A stretch of 32,000 nucleotides of DNA from Bifidobacterium longum subsp. longum JCM 1217 (GTDB lineage Bacteria; Actinomycetota; Actinomycetes; Actinomycetales; Bifidobacteriaceae). The stretch spans positions 660,001-692,000 of the forward strand of contig NC_015067.1 in NCBI RefSeq assembly GCF_000196555.1, read 5' to 3'. The position numbers and the translations under genes were made by a program. The notes below the pieces were generated by a model. The model was given only the letters and a program-made list of their open reading frames with translations. It was not told the DNA's origin and did not search any database. Below are positions 24,336 to 31,976 of this stretch, one piece after another; position 1 is the stretch's first letter; each line of letters opens with the position of its first letter.

Positions 24336-24338
24336 ATT

Positions 24339-24943
24339 GTCCCCTTCGACGAAAAGAATGCCGGGGCCTCCGGCGCTTGGAATTTCATCGACGCCGCCAA
24401 CGACTCCAATCCGAGGCGGCCGTGCCGTATTTCAAGGAGATATTCGATTACGCGCGCACGCTCGATCCGCAGCATCGCCCGCTGACCTACACCAATCTGC
24501 TGATGGCCGCCGGAGGCAAAGACAAGTGCCATCAGTTCGCGGATGTCATCTGCCTGAACCGGTATTACGGCTGGTATGTGCAAGATGGGTATCAGCTCAT
24601 CGGAGCCAAGAAGGCCTTCATCAACGAGATGAACCAATGGATGAACACCGAACCCAACAAGCCGTTTCTGTTCACCGAATACGGTGCGGACACCGATGCC
24701 GGTGTGCACAAGCTGCCGAGCATGCAATGGAGTGAAGAGTACCAATGCGAGTACCTCACCATGCAACACGAAGTGTTCGACATGTTCGAGGCAGTGGTGG
24801 GCGAGCAGGTATGGAACCTCTGCGACTTCCAAACCGGTGAAGGTATCATGCGCGTCGACGGCAACAAGAAGGACGTCTTCACTCGCGACCGTCAGCCCAA
24901 AGCCGCCGCCTATGTACTCAAGGAGCGTTGGGAGACTAAGTAG
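24339..24943 (+). pseudogene. beta-glucuronidase (GH2, GusA/UidA-type) C-terminal remnant
   Basis: DVICLNRYYGWYVQDGY...FTEYGADTDAGVH...MWSEEYQCEYL...AVVGEQVWNLCDFQTGEGIMRVDGNKKDVFTRDRQPKAAAYVLKERW aligns by eye almost residue-for-residue with the last 190 aa or so of E. coli GUS. About 400 N-terminal residues are absent. There is a 1-nt frameshift near 24411-24413 (frame change between ...WNFIDAANDSNP and EAAVPYF...). It begins 3 nt after the AEC stop. Confidence 0.85.
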
Positions 24944-25010
24944 CGGCCCGCCCCTGGAATATTCCAGGAGCAACACACATCGCATAACACACAACGCAAC
25001 ATACAAAAAA

Positions 25011-25045
25011 GAACCTCGTGAAACGAATTTCACGAGGTTCTTTCT
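25011..25045 (+). terminator. intrinsic terminator after the gusA remnant
   Basis: 13-bp perfect stem gaacctcgtgaaa / tttcacgaggttc with loop cgaa, then TTTCT. An A6 run precedes it, so it could act in both directions. Confidence 0.8.
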
Positions 25046-25295
25046 AGTTACGCTGAATGACTCCCATTAGACTCCCACGAGGGAAGAGCAATGGGAATTC
25101 CAACGTGGCTAAGCTCTCAAACTCAGATGTGGAATCTGATTTCTATGGTTTGAGGCAATTATTGATATAATGCAGAAAATGGCTTGATAATGCCAATTAT
25201 GTGGTGTATCGAAGGTGGGTATAGACGGCTTTAGATTTCTTTAGATTGCCATTGTTGGCTACCCTTTTGGCTACCCTATGGAATATCCTGGTCGT

Positions 25296-26546
25296 ATGGC
25301 ACGAAGAACACACGGAAGCGGCAGCGTTTACCCGGAACGCACCGGAGGGTTTCGGGCGACGTGCGAGTTGCCTCCGGATCCGGCGACGGGGAAGCGGCGG
25401 CGTCTGGTGGCGCGTGGACGCACCAAGGCCATAGCGTTGAAACGTTTGAAGGACAAGAAGCTGGAGTATGAGCGCTCCGGTCGTATGCCGAGCCAGACGA
25501 CTCCATATTTGAAAGATTGGCTGGATAGGTGGTTGGATGAGATTGTCAAACCTCGTCTGCGTCCTTCGACGTTGGCGACATACAGAAGCACCGTCGAGGC
25601 GTTGATCAAGCCCGCGATAGGGGGCGTTCGGTTGGGCAGGCTGGAGCCGAAGCATTTTCGGTTGATGGAAGAGTACATCACCAAAGGCGATGACACATGC
25701 GATCCGCCGAGGAAGCCGCGAAGCAGCGCAACGGCGGGCAGTGCATGGCGGACGTTGCACAAGGCGCTCGACGATGCCGTGAAGGAGGGGATCATTGAGT
25801 CGAACCCGAGCGACCGTGCCGAAGCTCCGCGGGTTGTTTATACGGAGCGTAAGATTTTGACGCCGGTGCAGGCGGGGCAACTCATTAATGCCGAGAACGA
25901 TGTCATGTGGCATCTGATGTGGCGGCTCGCCTATGAGACGGGCATGAGGCAGGGGGAGCGTCTTGGTTTGACGAACTCCGAGATCCAGCTGATCGACAAC
26001 GCGGTATGCATCGTGGTCGAATGGCAGCTGAAGGTCTACAACAACGTGAAGGGCGTGCGGGACATTCCCAGTTCACTCGGCGCTCGACATGTGACGGGCA
26101 AGGCTTATCTGGTGCCTCCCAAGACGAATGCCGGAAGACGTGTGATCCCATTGCCCGAATCGCTAGCGGTTGAGTTGGGGCGGTACATCAAAGGTACCGG
26201 GCGAACAAATTCGGACGATCTGGTTTTCGTTCAGGCGGATGGAACGCCGCTGAACCGTATGATTGAGACCCGGGCGTGGAAGAAGGCGCTGAATCGAGTC
26301 GGACTGCCGGATGATTATGTGCCGCATTCCGCCCGGCACACGGCGGCGACGGCGATGGCCCAGTTGGGCATGAGCGACAAGGTGCGTGAATCCATCATGG
26401 GACATAGCGATATAAGCGTCACCAACCGCGTGTACACACATGTCGGTACGGCCGACGCATCCAAAGCCATCAACGGAGTCGAAACGCTGCTGGCGTTGGA
26501 ACCCGCGAATCCGCGGGTTCTAGATAGAAGTGCAACACCTGCCTAG
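25296..26546 (+). CDS. tyrosine recombinase / phage-type integrase (last 11 codons or so supplied by the inserted IS)
   Basis: N-terminal MARRTHGSGSVYPERTGGFRA...GKRRRL arm-binding-type start and a SAM-like core-binding region. The catalytic region has ETGMRQGE (R), HSARHTAAT (H-x-x-R) and MGHSDISVTNRVYTHV (H...Y). Confidence 0.9.
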   Translation: MARRTHGSGSVYPERTGGFRATCELPPDPATGKRRRLVARGRTKAIALKRLKDKKLEYERSGRMPSQTTPYLKDWLDRWLDEIVKPRLRPSTLATYRSTVEALIKPAIGGVRLGRLEPKHFRLMEEYITKGDDTCDPPRKPRSSATAGSAWRTLHKALDDAVKEGIIESNPSDRAEAPRVVYTERKILTPVQAGQLINAENDVMWHLMWRLAYETGMRQGERLGLTNSEIQLIDNAVCIVVEWQLKVYNNVKGVRDIPSSLGARHVTGKAYLVPPKTNAGRRVIPLPESLAVELGRYIKGTGRTNSDDLVFVQADGTPLNRMIETRAWKKALNRVGLPDDYVPHSARHTAATAMAQLGMSDKVRESIMGHSDISVTNRVYTHVGTADASKAINGVETLLALEPANPRVLDRSATPA

Positions 26547-27699
26547 GGTTGGAAGTGTCTAGGTTCCAGCTGGAGGTGTTGCACTCGTGGGTACATGTTA
26601 TTCGCACCTGTCCCCGGACGAGCGGATCAGGATCGAGAGGCTGCATTGCGAGCAGGGTCTGAGCGTCAGGGAAACGGCCAGGCTGGTCGGCCGGGACAAG
26701 GCCACCGTCAGCCGCGAGCTGAAACGGGGACTGTGGTTCGCGTCCAACGAGAACGAATCGTACCGCCCGTACCGGCCGCGGCGGCTGAAGACCGGCCCGT
26801 GGACGTCCATGCCGTTCTGCTCCGCCCTCGCGGCGCAGCGGAGGGCCGACCTGAGGCGCCACGGGTCCCGCAAACCGCGGCGCATGGACTCGGACCGGCT
26901 GCGCTCGTGGGTGATGGACGCGCTGCGCCGTGGATGGAGCCCCGGGCTGATCGAGGGCAGGCCGAAGCTGGAGTACCCCGGCGACCCCGTGATGCGGGTC
27001 AGCCACGAATGCCTCCACCAATGGATCCACGCCAAACCCCAGCGCGACCTGGACCTGCGCCAATACCTGCCGCGGGGCAGGAAGCGCCGCGCCAGACGGA
27101 AGGGACGCAAGGTCAGGGGGCCGCGCATCCCCATGCGCGTGGACATCGGCCAACGGCCCAGGGCTGTGGACTCGCGCGGGCAGTTCGGCCACCGGGAGTC
27201 CGACACCGTGATAGGCGCGGCCCCTCGCGCGTGTGCATCGACACGCAGGTCGAACGCAAAAGCCGCAGACCGTTCGCCCGCCTGATCCCCGACAAGAGCG
27301 CCATGGCCACCGCGCGCGCCGAATACGAGATCTACAGGGACCTGCCGCCCCGGGCGCGCATCGACCGGACCTGGGACAACGGCAGCGAGGCCTCCTGCCA
27401 CCAGCTGGTCGACGAGGCCCTGGGCATGCCCGCCTACTTCGCCGACCCCTACTCCAGCTGGCAGCGCGGAAGCAACGAGAACAGGAACGGCAGGATCCGC
27501 CGCTACCTGCCCAAGAAAACCCCGTTCGACGACCTGACCCAGGCCGAGCTCGACGACATCGTCAAGGAGACCGACGACACCCCCATGAAACAGCTCGAAT
27601 ACAAAACACCCAACGAGGCATGGGACGAGGAGATAACCCGACTACAATCGCAAAACACCAACCCAAGCACAAGCGTTGCACTTACAAGTTGAATCCGGG
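26512..27699 (+). mobile_element. IS30-family insertion sequence (about 1.16-1.19 kb)
   Basis: Imperfect terminal inverted repeats share the core AAGTGCAAC (26528-26536; complement of 27675-27683) and ...GGGTTGG. A 7-nt direct repeat GAATCCG lies at 26507-26513 and 27691-27697. It encodes an IS30-type DDE transposase. The ends are uncertain by about 15 bp. Confidence 0.75.
26587..27692 (+). pseudogene. IS30-family transposase, split by a frameshift near 27213-27226
   Basis: Frame 1 (26587-27285): YSHLSPDERIRIERLHCEQGLSVRETARLVGRDKATVSRELKRG...WSPGLIEGR...GHRESDTVIG. Frame 2 continues RVCIDTQVERKSRR...WDNGSEASCH...YFADPYSSWQRGSNENRNGRIRRYLPK. The switch falls in the ggcgcggcccctcgcgcg run. 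Confidence 0.8.
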
Positions 27700-27752
27700 T
27701 TTGACGAACCGTGTTTTCATGTAGGATAATTCCATGGGAGGTGGCATCGGCG

Positions 27753-28622
27753 ATGGGGTTGGTGGATAAGGTGAGACGGCTGTTGGGGCGTGATTGGGAG
27801 ATCGCCAACACGCGGCTTATGGAGGAACAATATTCGGCGTGCGACACGCTGCTTGCCGCGACGACGACGGATTATGCGGATGGGGCCCGCGCCCTTGCCC
27901 GCAAGTACGGACAGGATGGGCACGGGTATATGGAAGCGCATGGCGTCATCCTCCGTTCCGATCCCGATGACGAGGGGAACGCGGGCACCGTCCTCGTCGA
28001 GGGAAACCGCATCGGTCGGATTCCCCGCTATGTGGCCAGGCAGCTTGAATTCGGGCCTTCCGGCGAGGAGCCCGTCGTCATACGCATGTTCACCGAACGG
28101 ACGGCCAGGGGATTGCGCTGCGAGGCGTGGTACTGGTTCGGCCGTTCCGAACCACGCTGGTTCTATTCTCGGGACCATCGCCCTCCCATGACGCCCGAAG
28201 CCAAAGCCGAGGCCGCGCAACGGGACACGGAGCGTATGGTGGAGGAAGCTCTCGAAGAAGGCGGGCCACGCGCAGATTCCTTCCGGCTGGGCATGGTTGA
28301 TGGGACGCATTACCTGGAGACGGTCGAGCCGATCAAACAGCTCAAACGCGAAGACCGCCTCGAAGAGGCGCTTGACTTGTGCATGACAGCCATCCAAGGA
28401 GCCGAGAACGAGGCGCGGGCCGAAGGACATCAACCCGCTCCCTGGTATACGGAACAGGCCGCCATCATCCTCCGCAAACTCAAACGCCCCGATGAGGAGA
28501 AAGCCATCATCCAGCGCTGGATTGACGCCTGCCCAGAAGGATACATCAAAGCCAATCCCGACGAAACGCTTGTCGTCCGCCTCCGCCGCATACGGGAAAA
28601 GGAAAACGCCAAAAGATCCTAA
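27753..28622 (+). CDS. hypothetical protein with a weak HIRAN-like N-terminal segment and a helical C-terminal domain
   Basis: Protein-like composition and codon pattern; the opposite-strand 327-aa ORF is compositional junk. VILRSDPDDEGNAGTVLVEGNRIGRIPRYVARQLEF resembles the HIRAN core (weak, by eye). The start is taken at ATG 27753, after GGGAGG. Confidence 0.6.
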   Translation: MGLVDKVRRLLGRDWEIANTRLMEEQYSACDTLLAATTTDYADGARALARKYGQDGHGYMEAHGVILRSDPDDEGNAGTVLVEGNRIGRIPRYVARQLEFGPSGEEPVVIRMFTERTARGLRCEAWYWFGRSEPRWFYSRDHRPPMTPEAKAEAAQRDTERMVEEALEEGGPRADSFRLGMVDGTHYLETVEPIKQLKREDRLEEALDLCMTAIQGAENEARAEGHQPAPWYTEQAAIILRKLKRPDEEKAIIQRWIDACPEGYIKANPDETLVVRLRRIREKENAKRS

Positions 28623-28722: not shown

Positions 28723-29355
28723 CTGGCGTTCAGTGCTAGCGAATCGTCCGATTGGAATACCGCTTCTCTACTCGACATCGCAAGCTATAAGAACGGACTT
28801 GCCATGCAGCGGTTCAGGTCTGTAGAAGATGATCCCGGCCTCCCCGTACTAAAGATTCGTGAGCTTAGCCAGGGCTATTGCGGCAGTGACGCCGAGCGAT
28901 GCCGCAGCGACATTGACGAGTCGGTCACCATCCATGATGGAGACCTCGTGTTCTCCTGGTCTGGAACTCTTCTTCTCGACTTCTGGTCTGGAGGCAATGC
29001 TGGGTTGAACCAGCACCTCTTTAAGGTTACATCCGATGCTTATCCAAGCTGGTTCTATTACATGTGGACCAAGAAACACATGCGCCGCTTCATCATGCTG
29101 GCGAAGGACCGCGCAACCACCATGGGCCATATCAAGCGCAGTGCATTGCAGGAATCCAAGGTGCTCATACCCCCAGCAGACGTGATGGCTGAACTATCCG
29201 CAAAAATGCAGCCCATAGTGGACGAAATAATCGGCTTGAAGGTTCAATCTCGTAAGCTAGGCGAGCTTAGGGATGCGTTGCTTCCGAAGCTTATGTCAGG
29301 TGAAATTGACATCTCACAAGTCGAGTTACCTACAAAGTCAAATGAGATTGGTTAA
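28723..29355 (+). pseudogene. type I R-M specificity subunit (HsdS) fragment: one target-recognition domain plus a conserved C-terminal helix
   Basis: The frame is open from 28723 with no start codon. It reads ...SDWNTASLLDIASYKNGLAMQRF...GLPVLKIRELSQG...GDLVFSWSGTLLLDFWSGGNAGLNQHLFKV...TTMGHIKRSAL...IPPADVMAEL...LGELRDALLPKLMSGEIDIS. No hsdM or hsdR is present in the window. Confidence 0.75.
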
Positions 29356-29360
29356 TTGGC

Positions 29361-29877
29361 ATGAACATTGCAAAACTTTACAAGAAAGGTTCACACATGG
29401 ATATCAGGACCCTAATGAAGAGGCAATACAACGTCGAGCTTCGGATAGAAAGAGATGGCGAAAGCCATATTGAGCATGGCGTAGTGGGTGATGGAATTAT
29501 CTCTATGCCAGTTGATGCTGATATCCAGGAGCGTGACAAGATATTTCGTCAAAACAGTTGCGGGACGAATCAAAAGTGATTACCGTTACTCGCCGTATGT
29601 CTATAACTCTTTCGTGTTCCCCTCGAACAATCTAGAGAGTATTAAAGAAGCCGCATTAGCGGTTGTTAAATCTCGTGCGATATACACCGGCAAAAACCTT
29701 GCCGATATGTATGCAATAAAGAACAGATTCTTTTACCCGGAACTTATGCAAGCTCACCGAGAACTTGACGAACAAGTGATGGCGGGATACGGGCTACGTA
29801 GCGACAGCAATGAAGGACAGATTGTCGATATGTTGTTCGACTTGTATTTGCGGGTGACTGGCAAACGCGGTTATTAG
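29361..29877 (+). pseudogene. C-terminal fragment of an MmeI-family (type IIL/IIG) R-M enzyme or BREX-PglX-like methyltransferase, frameshifted
   Basis: GRIKSDYRYSPYVYNSFVFP...NLADMYA...PELMQAHRELDEQVMAGYGL...EGQIVDMLFDLY matches the conserved MmeI C-terminal region (GRLKSDYRYS..VYNNFPWP...LADLYDP...L.KAH..LD..V..AYG...ER...LF..Y). The upstream piece (29361-29579) is in another frame. Only about 170 of roughly 900 aa remain. Confidence 0.65.
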
Positions 29878-29903
29878 CCGGTATGGTCACCGATATGTTA
29901 GGA

Positions 29904-29942
29904 CGGCAGGAGTGACTGTTGTTGTTCCTGCCGCCTTTCTTA
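29904..29942 (+). terminator. intrinsic terminator after the MmeI-like fragment
   Basis: cggcagga / tcctgccg stem with a 14-nt loop, followed by CCTTTCTT. Confidence 0.55.
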
Positions 29943-29950
29943 TGTGGCTC

Positions 29951-30820
29951 TCAGTTGTCGTTCATGCCGAATTCAATTGTCCGAAGCACGCCCTTCCAGT
30001 AGGATTCCCGGTCAAGCACTGTATCACGGGACGCCTTCTTGTCGAATATTTCCAGAATCGAATATGAGAAGTTTCGGATGATGTGCTCTGCCCCGTACTG
30101 GTTCTTCAACTCGATCATCTCCTTGTTGCCGCCGGTCGGGTCGGAGAGGTTCGCGTAGGATGACCATCGTGTCCATAGGCCATCGGCGTCACTGGATGCG
30201 CTCCCCACGTATAGCCGTCCTGTGCTCCGGTCTGTAATCACATATACCGCCTTTACGCTGGATAGAGCGTCATGCCATTCCGGTTCGTTGTGGTTGATGA
30301 TGTCCTGTAACTCGCCGTGCGTGAGACACACGTGATCGTATCCGTTGAATGCTCCGAGCTTCGTCCGTGGCGAGATCTCATACACTTCAGGATCCAGTTG
30401 CGCCTGTATATTCGCGTATTTGCGTAGATACAAATCACGCCCAATGGGTTTGTTGAGACGAATTACAAGTCTTTTCCGATATTCGGAATACTCATCCATT
30501 AGAGTTAGCTCATATCCATATATGTTCCATTGTCCCGGGGCTGCATCTCGTACATGGTATAGACCGCCAAAGATGAAGTACTCTGGCCCATATCGATAGT
30601 ATTGGGCGAACGCGAACAAGTACTTCCTGCCTCCCATATTGCCGTTTGGTTGCTTGGTTTTCCAGGCGTTCATGATCAGCCAATCCGGGTCGTCATGTAG
30701 CAATAGATTCCATGCTGGTCGTGACCGGTCGTTCGGGTTCATGTTGAACTTAATCTTTGCCTGATCTGGTTTGTCGAAGTGGAACAGATCAGTGAGTTTT
30801 ATTGGCATTTGCTCTGTCAT
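29951..30820 (-). CDS. GIY-YIG nuclease domain protein with a 190-aa N-terminal domain of unknown function
   Basis: The C-terminal part reads KAVYVITDRSTGRLYVGSASSDADGLWTRWSSYA...GGNKEMI...FSYSILEIF...LDRESYWKGVL...FGMNDN. This gives GIY(VYV)-11aa-YIG(YVG) plus the conserved R, E and N. The start is taken at the second ATG (30820), 6 nt after AGGAG. Confidence 0.8.
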   Translation of the reverse strand: MTEQMPIKLTDLFHFDKPDQAKIKFNMNPNDRSRPAWNLLLHDDPDWLIMNAWKTKQPNGNMGGRKYLFAFAQYYRYGPEYFIFGGLYHVRDAAPGQWNIYGYELTLMDEYSEYRKRLVIRLNKPIGRDLYLRKYANIQAQLDPEVYEISPRTKLGAFNGYDHVCLTHGELQDIINHNEPEWHDALSSVKAVYVITDRSTGRLYVGSASSDADGLWTRWSSYANLSDPTGGNKEMIELKNQYGAEHIIRNFSYSILEIFDKKASRDTVLDRESYWKGVLRTIEFGMNDN

Positions 30821-30905
30821 TTTCATCTCCTAAGGTAACGTTTGAACTTTTCGTTTGTTGCAGAGTGCGCTACCGCGCCAGTTATAAAAGAAAACGTGAG
30901 TCTCT

Positions 30906-31439
30906 CTACCTGAGTATTTCGTAAATGAATCCGTCGTGTAGCTTGACGGCGATCTTGTCGTAGCGGGAGTCATCGGGGTGCTCTTCCATCGCATCGTGGG
31001 CGGCGCACAGTCGTTGGATGTCGCCACCGATCAGGTTCCGTTTGCTGAAGAGGTCACTGGCGTGCTTATGCATTGCCTTGGCGACGCTGTTCTTGCTGTC
31101 TCCTTGGTGGATTGCCCATGCGGCGACTACCGCCAGTTCATGGTCGAGGGCTTTCTTGAGTTCCGATATCAGCAGCACTTGGGCGACGTGATGGCATAGT
31201 CCGTTGTCGTACTCCGGAGACAGGGGCATCACTATGCGGCCGTTCTCTCGTTGTATTGGCATGACAGCCGTCTCTGCTTCCAGCTGTTTGGCTAAATCAG
31301 TGGACGCTTCATCGACTTGGTCGAGAAGATCGAGAACCATGTTGTGCATGAGTTTGCTGTAATAGGCGCTGTTCTCGATTTCCTTGAGAACTCGCATGTT
31401 ATCTCGCGTGTGTTTCTGCGGTGATTCCAGCCGTGCCAT
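30906..31439 (-). CDS. hypothetical 177-aa protein, first gene of the GIY-YIG module
   Basis: GAAGGGA lies 5 nt before ATG 31439. Helical, acidic composition. No domain I can name. There is a possible HTH-like stretch, GDSKNSVAKAMHKHASDLFSKR. Confidence 0.55.
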   Translation of the reverse strand: MARLESPQKHTRDNMRVLKEIENSAYYSKLMHNMVLDLLDQVDEASTDLAKQLEAETAVMPIQRENGRIVMPLSPEYDNGLCHHVAQVLLISELKKALDHELAVVAAWAIHQGDSKNSVAKAMHKHASDLFSKRNLIGGDIQRLCAAHDAMEEHPDDSRYDKIAVKLHDGFIYEILR

Positions 31440-31577
31440 AGGAGTCCCTTCTCCAGAACAATTCTATATGAATATGGTACCCAGAAAAACTTTGGGGAAT
31501 TAGCTGATTGACGAAAGGATGGACATCGTCAAGGGAGCGCACAGAGCGATCCCGAAAACCAGAAAGGCGGCGGTCAT

Positions 31578-31976
31578 ATGCCACGCAGGAAAAGCTATAC
31601 AACTGTCGAAGGATTTCAGAGCCTTGATCAGCATCTCATTGCCCAGCAGATGATTCCCCTGAGGGTTGATGCGAAGCAGGGCGATTGGGATGCCGAGACC
31701 AAAACCAATGCGCAGAAGACCAATGCGGACGGCGTACCCCAGTGGCTGATCCAGACCTTGTTCCAGCCAATCGACGGTGATGCAGAGCATGTGCCCGAGG
31801 TCGTGCCCGTTACCGTGACGGCCAAGGTGAAACCCGTCATCCGTGTGGGGGCTCCGGTGGAATTTGTTGGATTCGGCGCATGGGTTTACGTCTCCCACGA
31901 CAAGACTACGAAGCAGGTCACGTCGGTGAGGCGCAGCTTCATGGCCGCCGGGTTCAAACAGAACGGTGGTGAATGA
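31578..31976 (+). CDS. Pra / SCO3933-like protein (family annotated as plasmid replication, integration and excision activator in actinomycete integrative elements)
   Basis: The pattern ...DAETKTNAQKTNADGVPQWLIQTLF...VVPVTVTAKVKPV...GAPVEFVGFGAWVY...SFMAAG resembles remembered Pra/SCO3933 sequences (..D..TG.PLWQV.V......V.V.I.AK..P....PVEF.GL...Y....S..A.G). The start could be 31578 or 31650. Confidence 0.4.
   Translation: MPRRKSYTTVEGFQSLDQHLIAQQMIPLRVDAKQGDWDAETKTNAQKTNADGVPQWLIQTLFQPIDGDAEHVPEVVPVTVTAKVKPVIRVGAPVEFVGFGAWVYVSHDKTTKQVTSVRRSFMAAGFKQNGGE

What the first reader, a model, noticed from the sequence alone, without database searches (positions are those of the whole stretch)
29951..31439. 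Unknown 177-aa protein + GIY-YIG nuclease with a large unassigned N-domain: candidate uncharacterised two-gene defence or restriction module
Seen in sequence:
- Two co-directional minus-strand genes are separated by 85 nt, with no convincing terminator hairpin between them.
- Each has a good SD (GAAGGGA-5nt-ATG at 31439; AGGAG-6nt-ATG at 30820).
- They occupy the lowest-GC part of the window (roughly 45-50% by eye, against about 60% elsewhere).
- They sit between R-M gene debris and a Pra-like element gene, inside an integrase-bounded island. That is a classic defence-cargo position.
- A short dyad, ATTC-TATAT-GAAT (31461-31473), lies in their promoter region.

The nuclease: the downstream protein has a complete GIY-YIG catalytic signature in its last 100 aa. 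Residues 1-190 (e.g. YLFAFAQYYRYGPEYFIFGGLYHV, GYELTLMDEYSEYRKRLVIRL) match nothing I can name. A reader or sensor N-domain fused to a nuclease is the layout of modification-dependent and sensor-coupled effectors.

The partner: the upstream protein has no recognisable catalytic motif. I cannot place the pair in any named defence system from memory.
Basis: partly seen in the sequence, partly recalled or inferred. Interest (0 to 1): 0.7.

Follow-up and report, generated by a model that had tools for sequence, protein, structure and literature searches.

The report
Known Uzume nuclease on mobile element
The nuclease gene belongs to Uzume, an already named single-gene anti-phage system, and rides as cargo on a small integrative element of Bifidobacterium longum; the 177-aa "partner" is a backbone gene of that element, not a second defence component.

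Summary
Both ORFs, their spacing, their ribosome-binding sites, the low GC and the island context are real.

- The 289/291-aa protein matches PADLOC's UzuA model over its full length (E 1.6e-51). Uzume is a named single-gene GIY-YIG defence system, already reported in Bifidobacterium.
- The exact protein is deposited as B. longum JCM 1217 BAJ66211.1.
- In 80 UzuA loci from 80 species, no homolog of the 177-aa protein is present and no other conserved neighbour exists.

The 177-aa family is tiny: 19 representative clusters among 1.84 billion proteins.
- It always sits at the edge of a pSAM2/AICE-like backbone (xis–rep–ftsK–57aa–132aa, divergent to the 177-aa gene).
- Variable cargo and an integrase follow it: MmeI alone, XhoI R-M plus UzuA, or an unknown gene.
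- One sister element keeps UzuA intact behind a 5'-truncated 177-aa gene.
- Backbone DNA homology stops exactly at the 177-aa stop codon.

The element is about 9.6 kb, sits in the 3' end of glnA, and is flanked by the 12-bp repeat TCAGATGTGGAA.

What stays open is Uzume's mechanism. Its ~150-aa N-domain matches no Pfam family and no PDB or BFVD fold.

The finding is ordinary and its interest is low.

The parts
29951..30826 (-). uzuA (Uzume single-gene defence nuclease). The ORF is 291 aa; the probable start is the ATG at 30820, giving 289 aa.
   Evidence: PADLOC PDLC03973 UzuA E 1.6e-51, residues 9-291 against profile 3-278 of 278. PHROG 26160 E 1.3e-89. The exact 289-aa sequence equals B. longum JCM 1217 BAJ66211.1 and is seen on 580 contigs.
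30377..30826 (-). UzuA N-terminal alpha/beta domain (residues ~1-150). Fold unassigned; putative target-recognition or sensor domain.
   Evidence: AlphaFold pLDDT is about 82-94 across this stretch. No PDB or BFVD match outside the nuclease domain. No Pfam hit. Many invariant residues across 19 homologs.
29954..30334 (-). UzuA C-terminal GIY-YIG nuclease domain (residues ~165-291).
   Evidence: Family profile against I-TevI catalytic domain 1ln0/1mk0, E 1.5e-5. Foldseek 1mk0 TM 0.73, rmsd 3.1. Y195, Y206, G208, E259 and N289 are invariant and R220 nearly invariant.
30821..30905 (-). 85-nt spacer between the 177-aa gene and uzuA, with the SD AGGAG. No terminator or promoter consensus was found.
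   Evidence: The spacer is not conserved with the sister element L001.
29904..29933 (.). 13-bp-stem hairpin between the convergent uzuA and the MmeI fragment. Probable transcription stop.
   Evidence: The T-run is on the + strand only.
30906..31439 (-). 177-aa backbone gene of the integrative element. Small helical protein with a conserved GDSKxSVAKAMxKxxSNL motif. Function unknown; proposed element regulator (inference).
   Evidence: Only 11 clusters and 19 representative clusters, with no Pfam/NCBIfam/PADLOC hit. Always divergent from the 132aa-57aa-FtsK-Rep operon, with variable genes downstream. DNA homology to L001-3 ends at its stop codon.
31440..31577 (.). Divergent intergenic region between the 177-aa and 132-aa genes. 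Contains the 4-bp dyad (31461-31473), which overlaps a partly conserved GTAC-N-AnAnAGnA, -10-like stretch.
   Evidence: Alignment of four elements. The dyad itself is not conserved.
31578..31976 (+). 132-aa backbone gene (BLLJ_0545), first gene of the transfer/replication operon that continues beyond the window.
   Evidence: 100% identical in L010 and 95% in L001-3 and L091. Followed by the 57-aa gene, FtsK/SpoIIIE and Rep in L010.
29488..29877 (+). C-terminal remnant of an MmeI-type IIG restriction-modification gene (cargo debris).
   Evidence: Pfam MmeI_C and MmeI_TRD. PADLOC REase_MTase_IIG profile positions 787-910 of 912. A full-length MmeI gene occupies the same convergent position in L004.
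28804..29355 (+). C-terminal half of a type I R-M specificity subunit (cargo debris).
   Evidence: PADLOC Specificity_I E 2.4e-45, profile positions 199-361 of 369.
25278..26546 (+). Tyrosine integrase of the element.
   Evidence: Pfam Phage_integrase E 2.3e-24. 93-96% identical in L001-3 and L091.
25123..25134 (+). att direct repeat TCAGATGTGGAA, the left end of the element. The other copy is the 3' end of glnA, beyond the window.
   Evidence: Present exactly twice, at the glnA stop and past int, in L001-L004. Unique in the window, 0.12 expected by chance. Composite with L010.

Best explanation
The window is Bifidobacterium longum.

The element:
- Positions 25123 to beyond 32000 are a ~9.6-kb pSAM2/AICE-like integrative element inserted in the 3' end of glnA.
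- Its backbone is int at one end and, at the other, xis/HTH_17-rep-ftsK(tra)-57aa-132aa, divergently paired with the 177-aa gene.
- The stretch between the 177-aa gene and int is a cargo slot that turns over defence genes.
- In this copy the slot holds uzuA plus remnants of an MmeI-type and a type I R-M system.

UzuA (shown):
- UzuA is the whole Uzume system: one polypeptide with a conserved ~150-aa N-terminal domain of unassigned fold and a C-terminal I-TevI-type GIY-YIG nuclease.

Mechanism (inferred):
- The N-domain recognises a feature of invading DNA and the GIY-YIG domain cuts that DNA.
- There is no cognate methyltransferase. Self-DNA is therefore probably spared because the recognised feature (a modification, a structure or a phage-specific cue) is absent from the host, as in type IV enzymes such as CMoRE.
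- I put about 0.45 on this direct-restriction reading and about 0.3 on an infection-triggered, abortive nuclease.

The 177-aa protein (inferred):
- It is an element backbone protein, most likely a small DNA-binding regulator acting at the divergent promoter region.
- uzuA may simply be read through from its promoter.

The confidence given (0.85) applies to the identity claims: UzuA is single-gene Uzume carried as cargo, and the 177-aa gene is element backbone. It does not apply to the inferred mechanism.
For: Identity of UzuA:
- Full-length PADLOC UzuA hit, E 1.6e-51.
- The same hit is found for the sister alleles.
- More than 1,100 homolog clusters, at 55-60% identity over 97% of the length, in Staphylococcus, Clostridia and Microbacterium.
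- Uzume is listed as a single-gene GIY-YIG system (bioRxiv 10.1101/2024.10.26.620412).
- Uzume is found in ~80% of B. adolescentis genomes and under 10% of B. longum genomes (bioRxiv 10.1101/2025.01.20.633837).

Stand-alone nature:
- tblastn with five 177-aa family members against 80 UzuA loci gives a best E of 0.17.
- No flanking ORF family is shared by more than 5 of 59 non-Collinsella loci.
- UzuA lies next to dnaE or thrS in L092 and L093.

Backbone nature of the 177-aa gene:
- Same position in three element lineages, with different downstream cargo.
- Full-length MmeI directly follows it in L004.
- Homology to L001-3 ends at window position 30909, which is the stop codon.
- L091 has a remote paralog (hhalign 92%, E 6e-7) in the backbone slot. 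It also has a 5'-truncated 177-aa remnant (aa 66-177) in front of an intact UzuA.

Element ends:
- The 12-bp repeat occurs twice in each of L001-L004, at the glnA stop and past int.
- L010 overlaps the window at 99.94% identity and supplies FtsK and Rep.

Species:
- Exact protein matches to B. longum JCM 1217.

Nuclease fold:
-.
Against: - No experiment here shows protection, and Uzume's mechanism is unpublished in the literature I could search.
- The proposed role of the N-domain is inference from architecture only.
- The 177-aa gene and uzuA are adjacent and co-directional without a terminator in two diverged element variants (window/L010 and L001-3). A lineage-specific functional link cannot be excluded.
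- In L091 a remote paralog of the 177-aa protein is present upstream and could substitute for the truncated copy.
- The 177-aa structure model is poor (pLDDT 63), so its HTH/regulator assignment rests on a sequence motif alone.
- Rep, FtsK and xis lie outside the window and are known only through the overlapping contig L010.
Confidence: 0.85

Rival explanations
1. The 177-aa protein and UzuA form a functional two-gene defence module in this element lineage. The 177-aa protein would act as a regulator, antitoxin-like inhibitor or sensor for the nuclease.
For: - The two genes are adjacent and co-directional, with an 85-nt (window) or 61-nt (L001-3) gap and no terminator.
- The pairing is kept in two variants whose backbone is ~86% identical at the DNA level.
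Against: - No 177-aa homolog in any of 80 UzuA loci from other species.
- UzuA has no conserved neighbour at all.
- 177-aa homologs occur with MmeI or an unknown gene instead of UzuA.
- An intact UzuA sits behind a truncated 177-aa gene in L091.
- Backbone homology ends at the 177-aa stop codon, and the spacer is not conserved.
- Uzume is defined as a single-gene system.
Confidence: 0.08
2. The 291-aa protein is a free-standing GIY-YIG homing endonuclease, a selfish mobile gene rather than a defence gene.
For: - The catalytic domain is I-TevI-like.
- Weak hits to homing-endonuclease models: PADLOC HEase E 0.006, PHROG 314 E 1.2e-5, TIGR01453 E 4e-5.
- It is scattered in unrelated genomic contexts.
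Against: - The domain order is the reverse of I-TevI-type enzymes: here the nuclease is C-terminal.
- No NUMOD or IENR DNA-binding module is present.
- TIGR01453 scores 23.7 bits against a cut-off of 56.
- The full-length match is to UzuA, at an E-value about 45 orders of magnitude better.
- The gene is not inside an intron or another gene.
- The N-domain is conserved across phyla at ~60% identity, which is unlike fast-decaying homing endonuclease genes.
Confidence: 0.04
3. UzuA acts by abortive infection. The N-domain senses a phage protein or an infection state and releases the nuclease on host as well as phage nucleic acid, stopping the infected cell. It would not selectively restrict phage DNA.
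For: - No methyltransferase or immunity partner is conserved beside it.
- Many single-protein sensor-nuclease systems work this way (general knowledge).
- Among the Bifidobacterium element alleles the N-domain diverges faster than the nuclease domain: 55% against 87%, and 72% against 90%. This would be expected for a sensor in an arms race.
Against: - The best-studied single-protein GIY-YIG defence enzyme, CMoRE/PD-T4-3, is a direct type IV restriction enzyme (PMC12923530).
- Family-wide, the N- and C-domains are about equally conserved, 0.60 against 0.63.
- No data here discriminate between the two readings.
Confidence: 0.3

Closest known systems
Uzume (UzuA), single-gene anti-phage system
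   Same: - Full-length HMM match (PDLC03973, E 1.6e-51, profile 3-278 of 278).
- Same length class (~285 aa) and same architecture: an unassigned N-domain plus a C-terminal GIY-YIG domain.
- Stand-alone gene with no conserved partner.
- From my own knowledge, the system was described by Millman et al. 2022 (Cell Host Microbe). That paper is not held in the library. It is cited for Uzume in PMC12926258 and PMC13223576.
   Different: Nothing defining differs. This copy is carried on a Bifidobacterium integrative element at 49% GC in a ~60% GC genome, directly downstream of a backbone gene. Its anti-phage activity has not been tested.
CMoRE / PD-T4-3 (GIY-YIG type IV restriction endonuclease, PDB 9u75; PMC12923530)
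   Same: A single-polypeptide defence enzyme that joins a GIY-YIG nuclease to a separate recognition domain, with no methyltransferase partner. It is the best mechanistic analogy for how UzuA may work.
   Different: - The domain order is reversed: in CMoRE the nuclease is N-terminal and the sensor C-terminal.
- There is only a weak structural hit, through the nuclease domain (Foldseek probability 0.2, E 1.5).
- UzuA's N-domain shows no detectable similarity to CMoRE's sensing domain.
I-TevI catalytic domain (GIY-YIG homing endonuclease, PDB 1ln0/1mk0)
   Same: Same catalytic fold and residues: profile E 1.5e-5 and TM 0.73.
   Different: I-TevI has its nuclease at the N-terminus, a linker and a C-terminal DNA-binding domain, and it is intron-encoded. 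UzuA has the opposite order and an unrelated partner domain, and falls below the TIGR01453 cut-off.
pSAM2-type actinomycete integrative and conjugative elements (AICEs; PMC3218068)
   Same: - A small (~9-10 kb) element with a tyrosine integrase, an HTH_17 excisionase-like gene, a Rep, a single FtsK/SpoIIIE-type transfer protein and small regulatory or unknown genes.
- Integrated with short direct repeats.
   Different: - The target is the 3' end of glnA rather than a tRNA gene.
- The 177-aa and 132-aa proteins have no detectable similarity to named pSAM2 regulators (no Pfam or NCBIfam hits).
- Excision and transfer are untested.

Membership tests
Uzume (UzuA) | Full-length match to the UzuA profile used by PADLOC | tested here: met
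   PDLC03973 E 1.6e-51, 173.5 bits, residues 9-291 against profile 3-278 of 278; PDLC03974 E 1.4e-39.
Uzume (UzuA) | Single-gene system with no obligatory partner gene | tested here: met
   Across 80 loci from 80 species there is no 177-aa homolog (best E 0.17). No flanking ORF family is present in more than 5 of 59 non-Collinsella loci.
Uzume (UzuA) | Intact GIY-YIG catalytic residues | tested here: met
   Y195, Y206, G208, E259 and N289 are invariant and R220 nearly invariant across 19 homologs. They align to I-TevI Y6, Y17, R27, E75 and N90; the alignment is and the I-TevI residue roles are from my own knowledge.
Uzume (UzuA) | Protects against phage when expressed | not testable with these tools
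   Requires an experiment.
GIY-YIG nuclease superfamily | Pfam PF01541 gathering score | tested here: not met
   19.8 bits against a cut-off of 22.6 for this single sequence. Most homologs carry a precomputed PF01541 hit.
GIY-YIG nuclease superfamily | Profile-level and fold-level similarity to a solved GIY-YIG domain | tested here: met
   hmmsearch against 1ln0_A E 1.5e-5. Foldseek against 1mk0 gives probability 1.00, TM 0.73. More than 50 BFVD GIY-YIG hits.
I-TevI-type homing endonuclease | N-terminal catalytic domain plus C-terminal DNA-binding modules; TIGR01453 cut-off | tested here: not met
   The nuclease is C-terminal (residues 193-283). TIGR01453 scores 23.7 bits against a cut-off of 56.05. 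No NUMOD-type Pfam hit.
   Searches show the 177-aa gene without UzuA. Searches show UzuA without the 177-aa gene. One search shows a truncated 177-aa gene beside an intact UzuA.
CMoRE / PD-T4-3 | N-terminal GIYxY-YIG nuclease plus a C-terminal modified-cytosine sensing domain | tested here: not met
   The domain order is reversed. Foldseek against 9u75 gives probability 0.2. The architecture is taken from PMC12923530.
AICE / pSAM2-like integrative element | Tyrosine integrase and flanking direct repeats | tested here: met
   Integrase Pfam E 2.3e-24. The 12-bp repeat is present at both ends in L001-L004 and at window 25123.
AICE / pSAM2-like integrative element | Rep, a single FtsK/SpoIIIE-like Tra, and an excisionase | tested here: met
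   These lie outside the window and are seen in the 99.94%-identical contig L010 and in L001-L004. Pfam hits are REP_ORF2-G2P (weak), FtsK_SpoIIIE and HTH_17.
AICE / pSAM2-like integrative element | Excision, replication and conjugative transfer | not testable with these tools
   Requires an experiment.

The most novel reading that the evidence does not exclude
Two readings remain that my evidence does not exclude.

First, UzuA's conserved ~150-aa N-terminal domain is a new fold that reads a phage-specific DNA feature or trigger. Its faster divergence among Bifidobacterium element alleles (55-72% identity, against 87-90% in the nuclease domain) would then reflect specificity switching.

Second, the 177-aa backbone protein may define an undescribed family of regulators of actinobacterial integrative elements, whose promoter also drives whichever defence cargo sits downstream.
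Probability: 0.2. Interest if true: 0.45.

Novelty: already known. Interest (0 to 1): 0.13.

Why it matters
There is little new here. Standard defence-finder tools call this gene Uzume, and the exact protein is already deposited for B. longum JCM 1217.

The modest value is in the context:
- It documents a small glnA-targeting integrative element in bifidobacteria whose cargo slot, between a backbone gene and the integrase, swaps defence genes. The cargoes seen are MmeI, XhoI R-M plus Uzume, and Uzume plus R-M debris.
- It shows that adjacency to a backbone gene can mimic a two-gene operon.
- Uzume's mechanism and the fold of its N-domain remain open, so this allele could serve as one test case among many.

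Tried and rejected
- **177-aa protein, family searches.** Pfam, NCBIfam, PADLOC and PHROGs gave nothing usable. The only hit was PHROG 14279 at E 0.002, a family of unknown function. A Pfam scan of 14 family members gave only scattered single-member hits.
- **177-aa protein, structure.** A PDB profile search gave nothing below E 0.65. The AlphaFold model is poor (pLDDT 63) and its Foldseek hits are meaningless (best E 2.9). No fold assignment is claimed.
- **UzuA N-domain.** Foldseek against PDB and BFVD returned only nuclease-domain matches.
- **Promoter for uzuA.** The consensus scan found nothing in the 85-nt spacer.
- **The 4-bp dyad as an operator.** It is not conserved as a dyad in L001, L004 or L006, and the repeat finder did not report it.
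- **Literature.** The original Uzume paper is not held. A search for 'UzuA' returned only unrelated papers. No mechanistic study of Uzume was found.
- **The 132-aa neighbour.** The weak PADLOC 'orphan methyltransferase' hit (E 1.6e-4, 64 residues) was treated as noise, because Pfam and NCBIfam show nothing.
Full report
**1. The observation**

The two minus-strand ORFs exist as described: 29951..30826 (291 aa) and 30906..31439 (177 aa). The sequence shows GGAGAAGGGA, then five bases, then the ATG at 31439. It also shows AGGAG followed by six bases and the ATG at 30820. The nuclease therefore most likely starts at the third codon of the ORF. That gives 289 aa, which is exactly the deposited protein.

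The gap between the genes is 85 nt. The consensus scan found no terminator-like or promoter-like site in it. The only strong hairpin lies after the nuclease gene, at 29904-29933.

GC is 0.47-0.50 across 29001-31500, against 0.59 for the whole window. By gene it is 49.4% for the nuclease, 54.1% for the 177-aa gene and 44.4% for the MmeI fragment.

The ATTC-N5-GAAT dyad at 31461-31473 is present. Four-base arms are expected by chance, and the dyad is not kept in related elements.

**2. What the nuclease is**

PADLOC's UzuA model matches the whole protein: PDLC03973, E 1.6e-51, residues 9-291 against profile positions 3-278 of 278. A second UzuA model gives E 1.4e-39.

Uzume is a named single-gene defence system with a GIY-YIG domain (bioRxiv 10.1101/2024.10.26.620412). 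Its mechanism is listed as unknown (PMC12926258). From my own knowledge the system was described by Millman et al. 2022. That paper is not held here.

A survey of 1,086 Bifidobacterium genomes already reports Uzume in ~80% of B. adolescentis and under 10% of B. longum genomes (bioRxiv 10.1101/2025.01.20.633837).

The window itself is B. longum. Several of its proteins are exact matches to B. longum subsp. longum JCM 1217 entries, including the nuclease (BAJ66211.1, 'conserved hypothetical' / 'GIY-YIG domain-containing protein', seen on 580 contigs).

The family is large. More than 1,100 clusters share 55-60% identity over 97% of the length, in Staphylococcus, Macrococcus, Enterococcus and Clostridia. 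It is also found in Microbacterium, Nocardia and Collinsella. A full-length PHROG family match (E 1.3e-89) shows that relatives also occur in phage or prophage genomes.

**3. Anatomy of UzuA**

A 19-sequence alignment is conserved end to end. The AlphaFold model has a mean pLDDT of 81. It shows two domains joined by a low-confidence linker at residues 151-164.

The C-terminal domain is a GIY-YIG nuclease of the I-TevI type.
- A family profile matches 1ln0 at E 1.5e-5.
- Foldseek gives TM 0.73 to 1mk0.
- Y195, Y206, E259 and N289 are invariant and R220 is nearly invariant.
- The single sequence falls just short of Pfam's gathering score, 19.8 against 22.6 bits.

The N-terminal ~150 residues are confidently modelled. 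They match nothing in PDB or BFVD beyond noise and have no Pfam family.

**4. Is the 177-aa protein a partner?**

It is not. Five lines of evidence point the same way.

(a) The family is tiny. There are 11 clusters in the 5.8-billion-protein set and 19 representative clusters among 1.84 billion proteins with a profile search. The only named member in the first set is from B. bohemicum. UzuA, by contrast, has more than 1,100 clusters.

(b) I fetched 80 UzuA loci from 80 species with 6-kb flanks. A tblastn search with five 177-aa family members found nothing better than E 0.17. Clustering of all flanking ORFs found no family in more than 5 of the 59 non-Collinsella loci. UzuA sits next to dnaE and a WYL regulator in L092 and next to thrS in L093.

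(c) The 177-aa homologs always occupy one position. They are divergent from a 132aa-57aa-FtsK/SpoIIIE-Rep-HTH_17 operon and are followed by variable genes and an integrase.
- In L001-3 (80% identity) a UzuA allele and an XhoI-type R-M system follow.
- In L004 (55%) a full-length MmeI-type enzyme follows directly, with no UzuA.
- In B. bohemicum (L006-9, 39%) an unrelated 195-aa gene follows.

(d) DNA homology between the window and L001-3 (86-87%) runs from the window's end to position 30909, which is the stop codon of the 177-aa gene. It then breaks. The spacer is not alignable. Homology resumes only in the nuclease-domain half of uzuA, at 83%.

(e) In the sister element L091 the promoter and first 65 codons of the 177-aa gene are replaced by another module. 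An intact UzuA (80% identity) lies behind the truncated remnant. The backbone slot is filled by a 190-aa protein that is a remote homolog of the 177-aa family (hhalign 92%, E 6e-7).

The 177-aa gene is therefore a backbone gene of the mobile element, and uzuA is cargo.

**5. The element**

The 12-bp sequence TCAGATGTGGAA occurs at window 25123-25134. It is unique in the window, with 0.12 matches expected by chance. It also occurs at the glnA stop codon in contig L010, which overlaps the window's last 4.8 kb at 99.94% identity.

The same 12-mer occurs exactly twice in each of L001-L004, once at the glnA stop and once just past the integrase. The element is therefore about 9.6 kb here and 8-9 kb in relatives, integrated in the 3' end of glnA.

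It has the gene set of a small pSAM2/AICE-like element (compare PMC3218068).

The cargo slot in this copy contains:
- a 365-aa ORF that is an insertion relative to L091;
- a 303-aa unknown gene;
- the C-terminal half of a type I S subunit;
- the C-terminal ~125 residues of an MmeI-type enzyme, in the same convergent orientation as the intact MmeI of L004;
- uzuA.

This looks like repeated replacement of defence cargo.

**6. How it most likely works**

Shown: UzuA is a stand-alone protein with an intact GIY-YIG active site and a conserved second domain.

Inferred: the N-domain supplies target or trigger recognition and the GIY-YIG domain cleaves DNA.

No methyltransferase or immunity gene accompanies it. 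Self-protection must therefore come from what is recognised. The best-studied analogue is CMoRE/PD-T4-3, a single-protein GIY-YIG type IV enzyme that cuts 5hmC/5ghmC DNA, although its domain order is the reverse (PMC12923530). I favour direct restriction of foreign DNA (about 0.45) over an infection-triggered abortive nuclease (about 0.3). Nothing here discriminates between them.

Among the Bifidobacterium element alleles the N-domain diverges faster than the nuclease domain: 72% against 90%, and 55% against 87%. Family-wide the two are similar, 0.60 against 0.63. This fits either specificity switching or recombination between alleles, and I do not lean on it.

The 177-aa protein is helical in a weak model (pLDDT 63). 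It carries a conserved GDSKxSVAKAMxKxxSNL stretch that resembles a helix-turn-helix. With low confidence I propose that it is a DNA-binding regulator acting in the divergent intergenic region. uzuA may be read through from its promoter.

**7. Comparison and verdict**

The nuclease meets every testable defining feature of Uzume. It fails the tests for an I-TevI-type homing endonuclease and for CMoRE membership.

The two-gene hypothesis fails its co-occurrence test. The finding is a correct spotting of defence cargo on a mobile element, but the system is already named, already reported in this genus, and single-gene. Novelty is 'already known' and interest is low. The open points are Uzume's mechanism and the fold of its N-domain, and they apply to the whole family rather than to this locus.

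Noticed in passing
window 26514-27690 (ORF 26595-27692, +): A 365-aa ORF with 67% GC is an insertion relative to sister element L091, where the integrase abuts the 303-aa gene directly. Its C-terminal part hits PHROG families 4410 (unknown) and 4646 ('transposase'). It has no Pfam or PADLOC hit. It may be a small mobile insertion inside the element.
   Followed up: partly
window 27711-28622 (+): A 303-aa cargo gene is conserved at 100% in L010 and L091, between the integrase and the R-M debris. It has no hit in Pfam, NCBIfam or PADLOC, so it is unknown cargo in a defence-rich slot.
   Followed up: partly
window 25255-25277, and near the xis end of the element in L010: Tandem TTGGCTACC(C/G)TT repeats lie immediately upstream of the integrase start. 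They appear again between the Rep/xis end and glnA at the other end of the element. They are candidate arm-type integrase binding sites.
   Followed up: no
window 24336-25100: Directly left of the att repeat there is coding-looking sequence. By eye it resembles the C-terminal part of a glycoside hydrolase (beta-glucuronidase-like), apparently without its N-terminus. It may be a gene remnant.
   Followed up: no
window 29951-30826 compared with L001 6629-7501 and L091 2785-3657: Among alleles carried by closely related elements, UzuA's N-domain is much more diverged (55-72% identity) than its GIY-YIG domain (87-90%). The least conserved stretch is residues 91-120 (37%). Family-wide, the two domains are about equally conserved.
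   Followed up: partly
L091 652-2319: In a sister element, a module of three genes (190 aa, 104 aa, 234 aa) replaces the promoter and 5' third of the 177-aa gene. The 190-aa protein is a remote paralog of the 177-aa family. This suggests recombination between related elements at this backbone gene.
   Followed up: partly
L092 3024-4061: In another actinobacterial contig, the UzuA homolog (60% identity) is followed by a WYL-domain regulator (PADLOC WYL E 1.2e-19) and preceded by dnaE. This is a chromosomal context unrelated to the integrative element.
   Followed up: no
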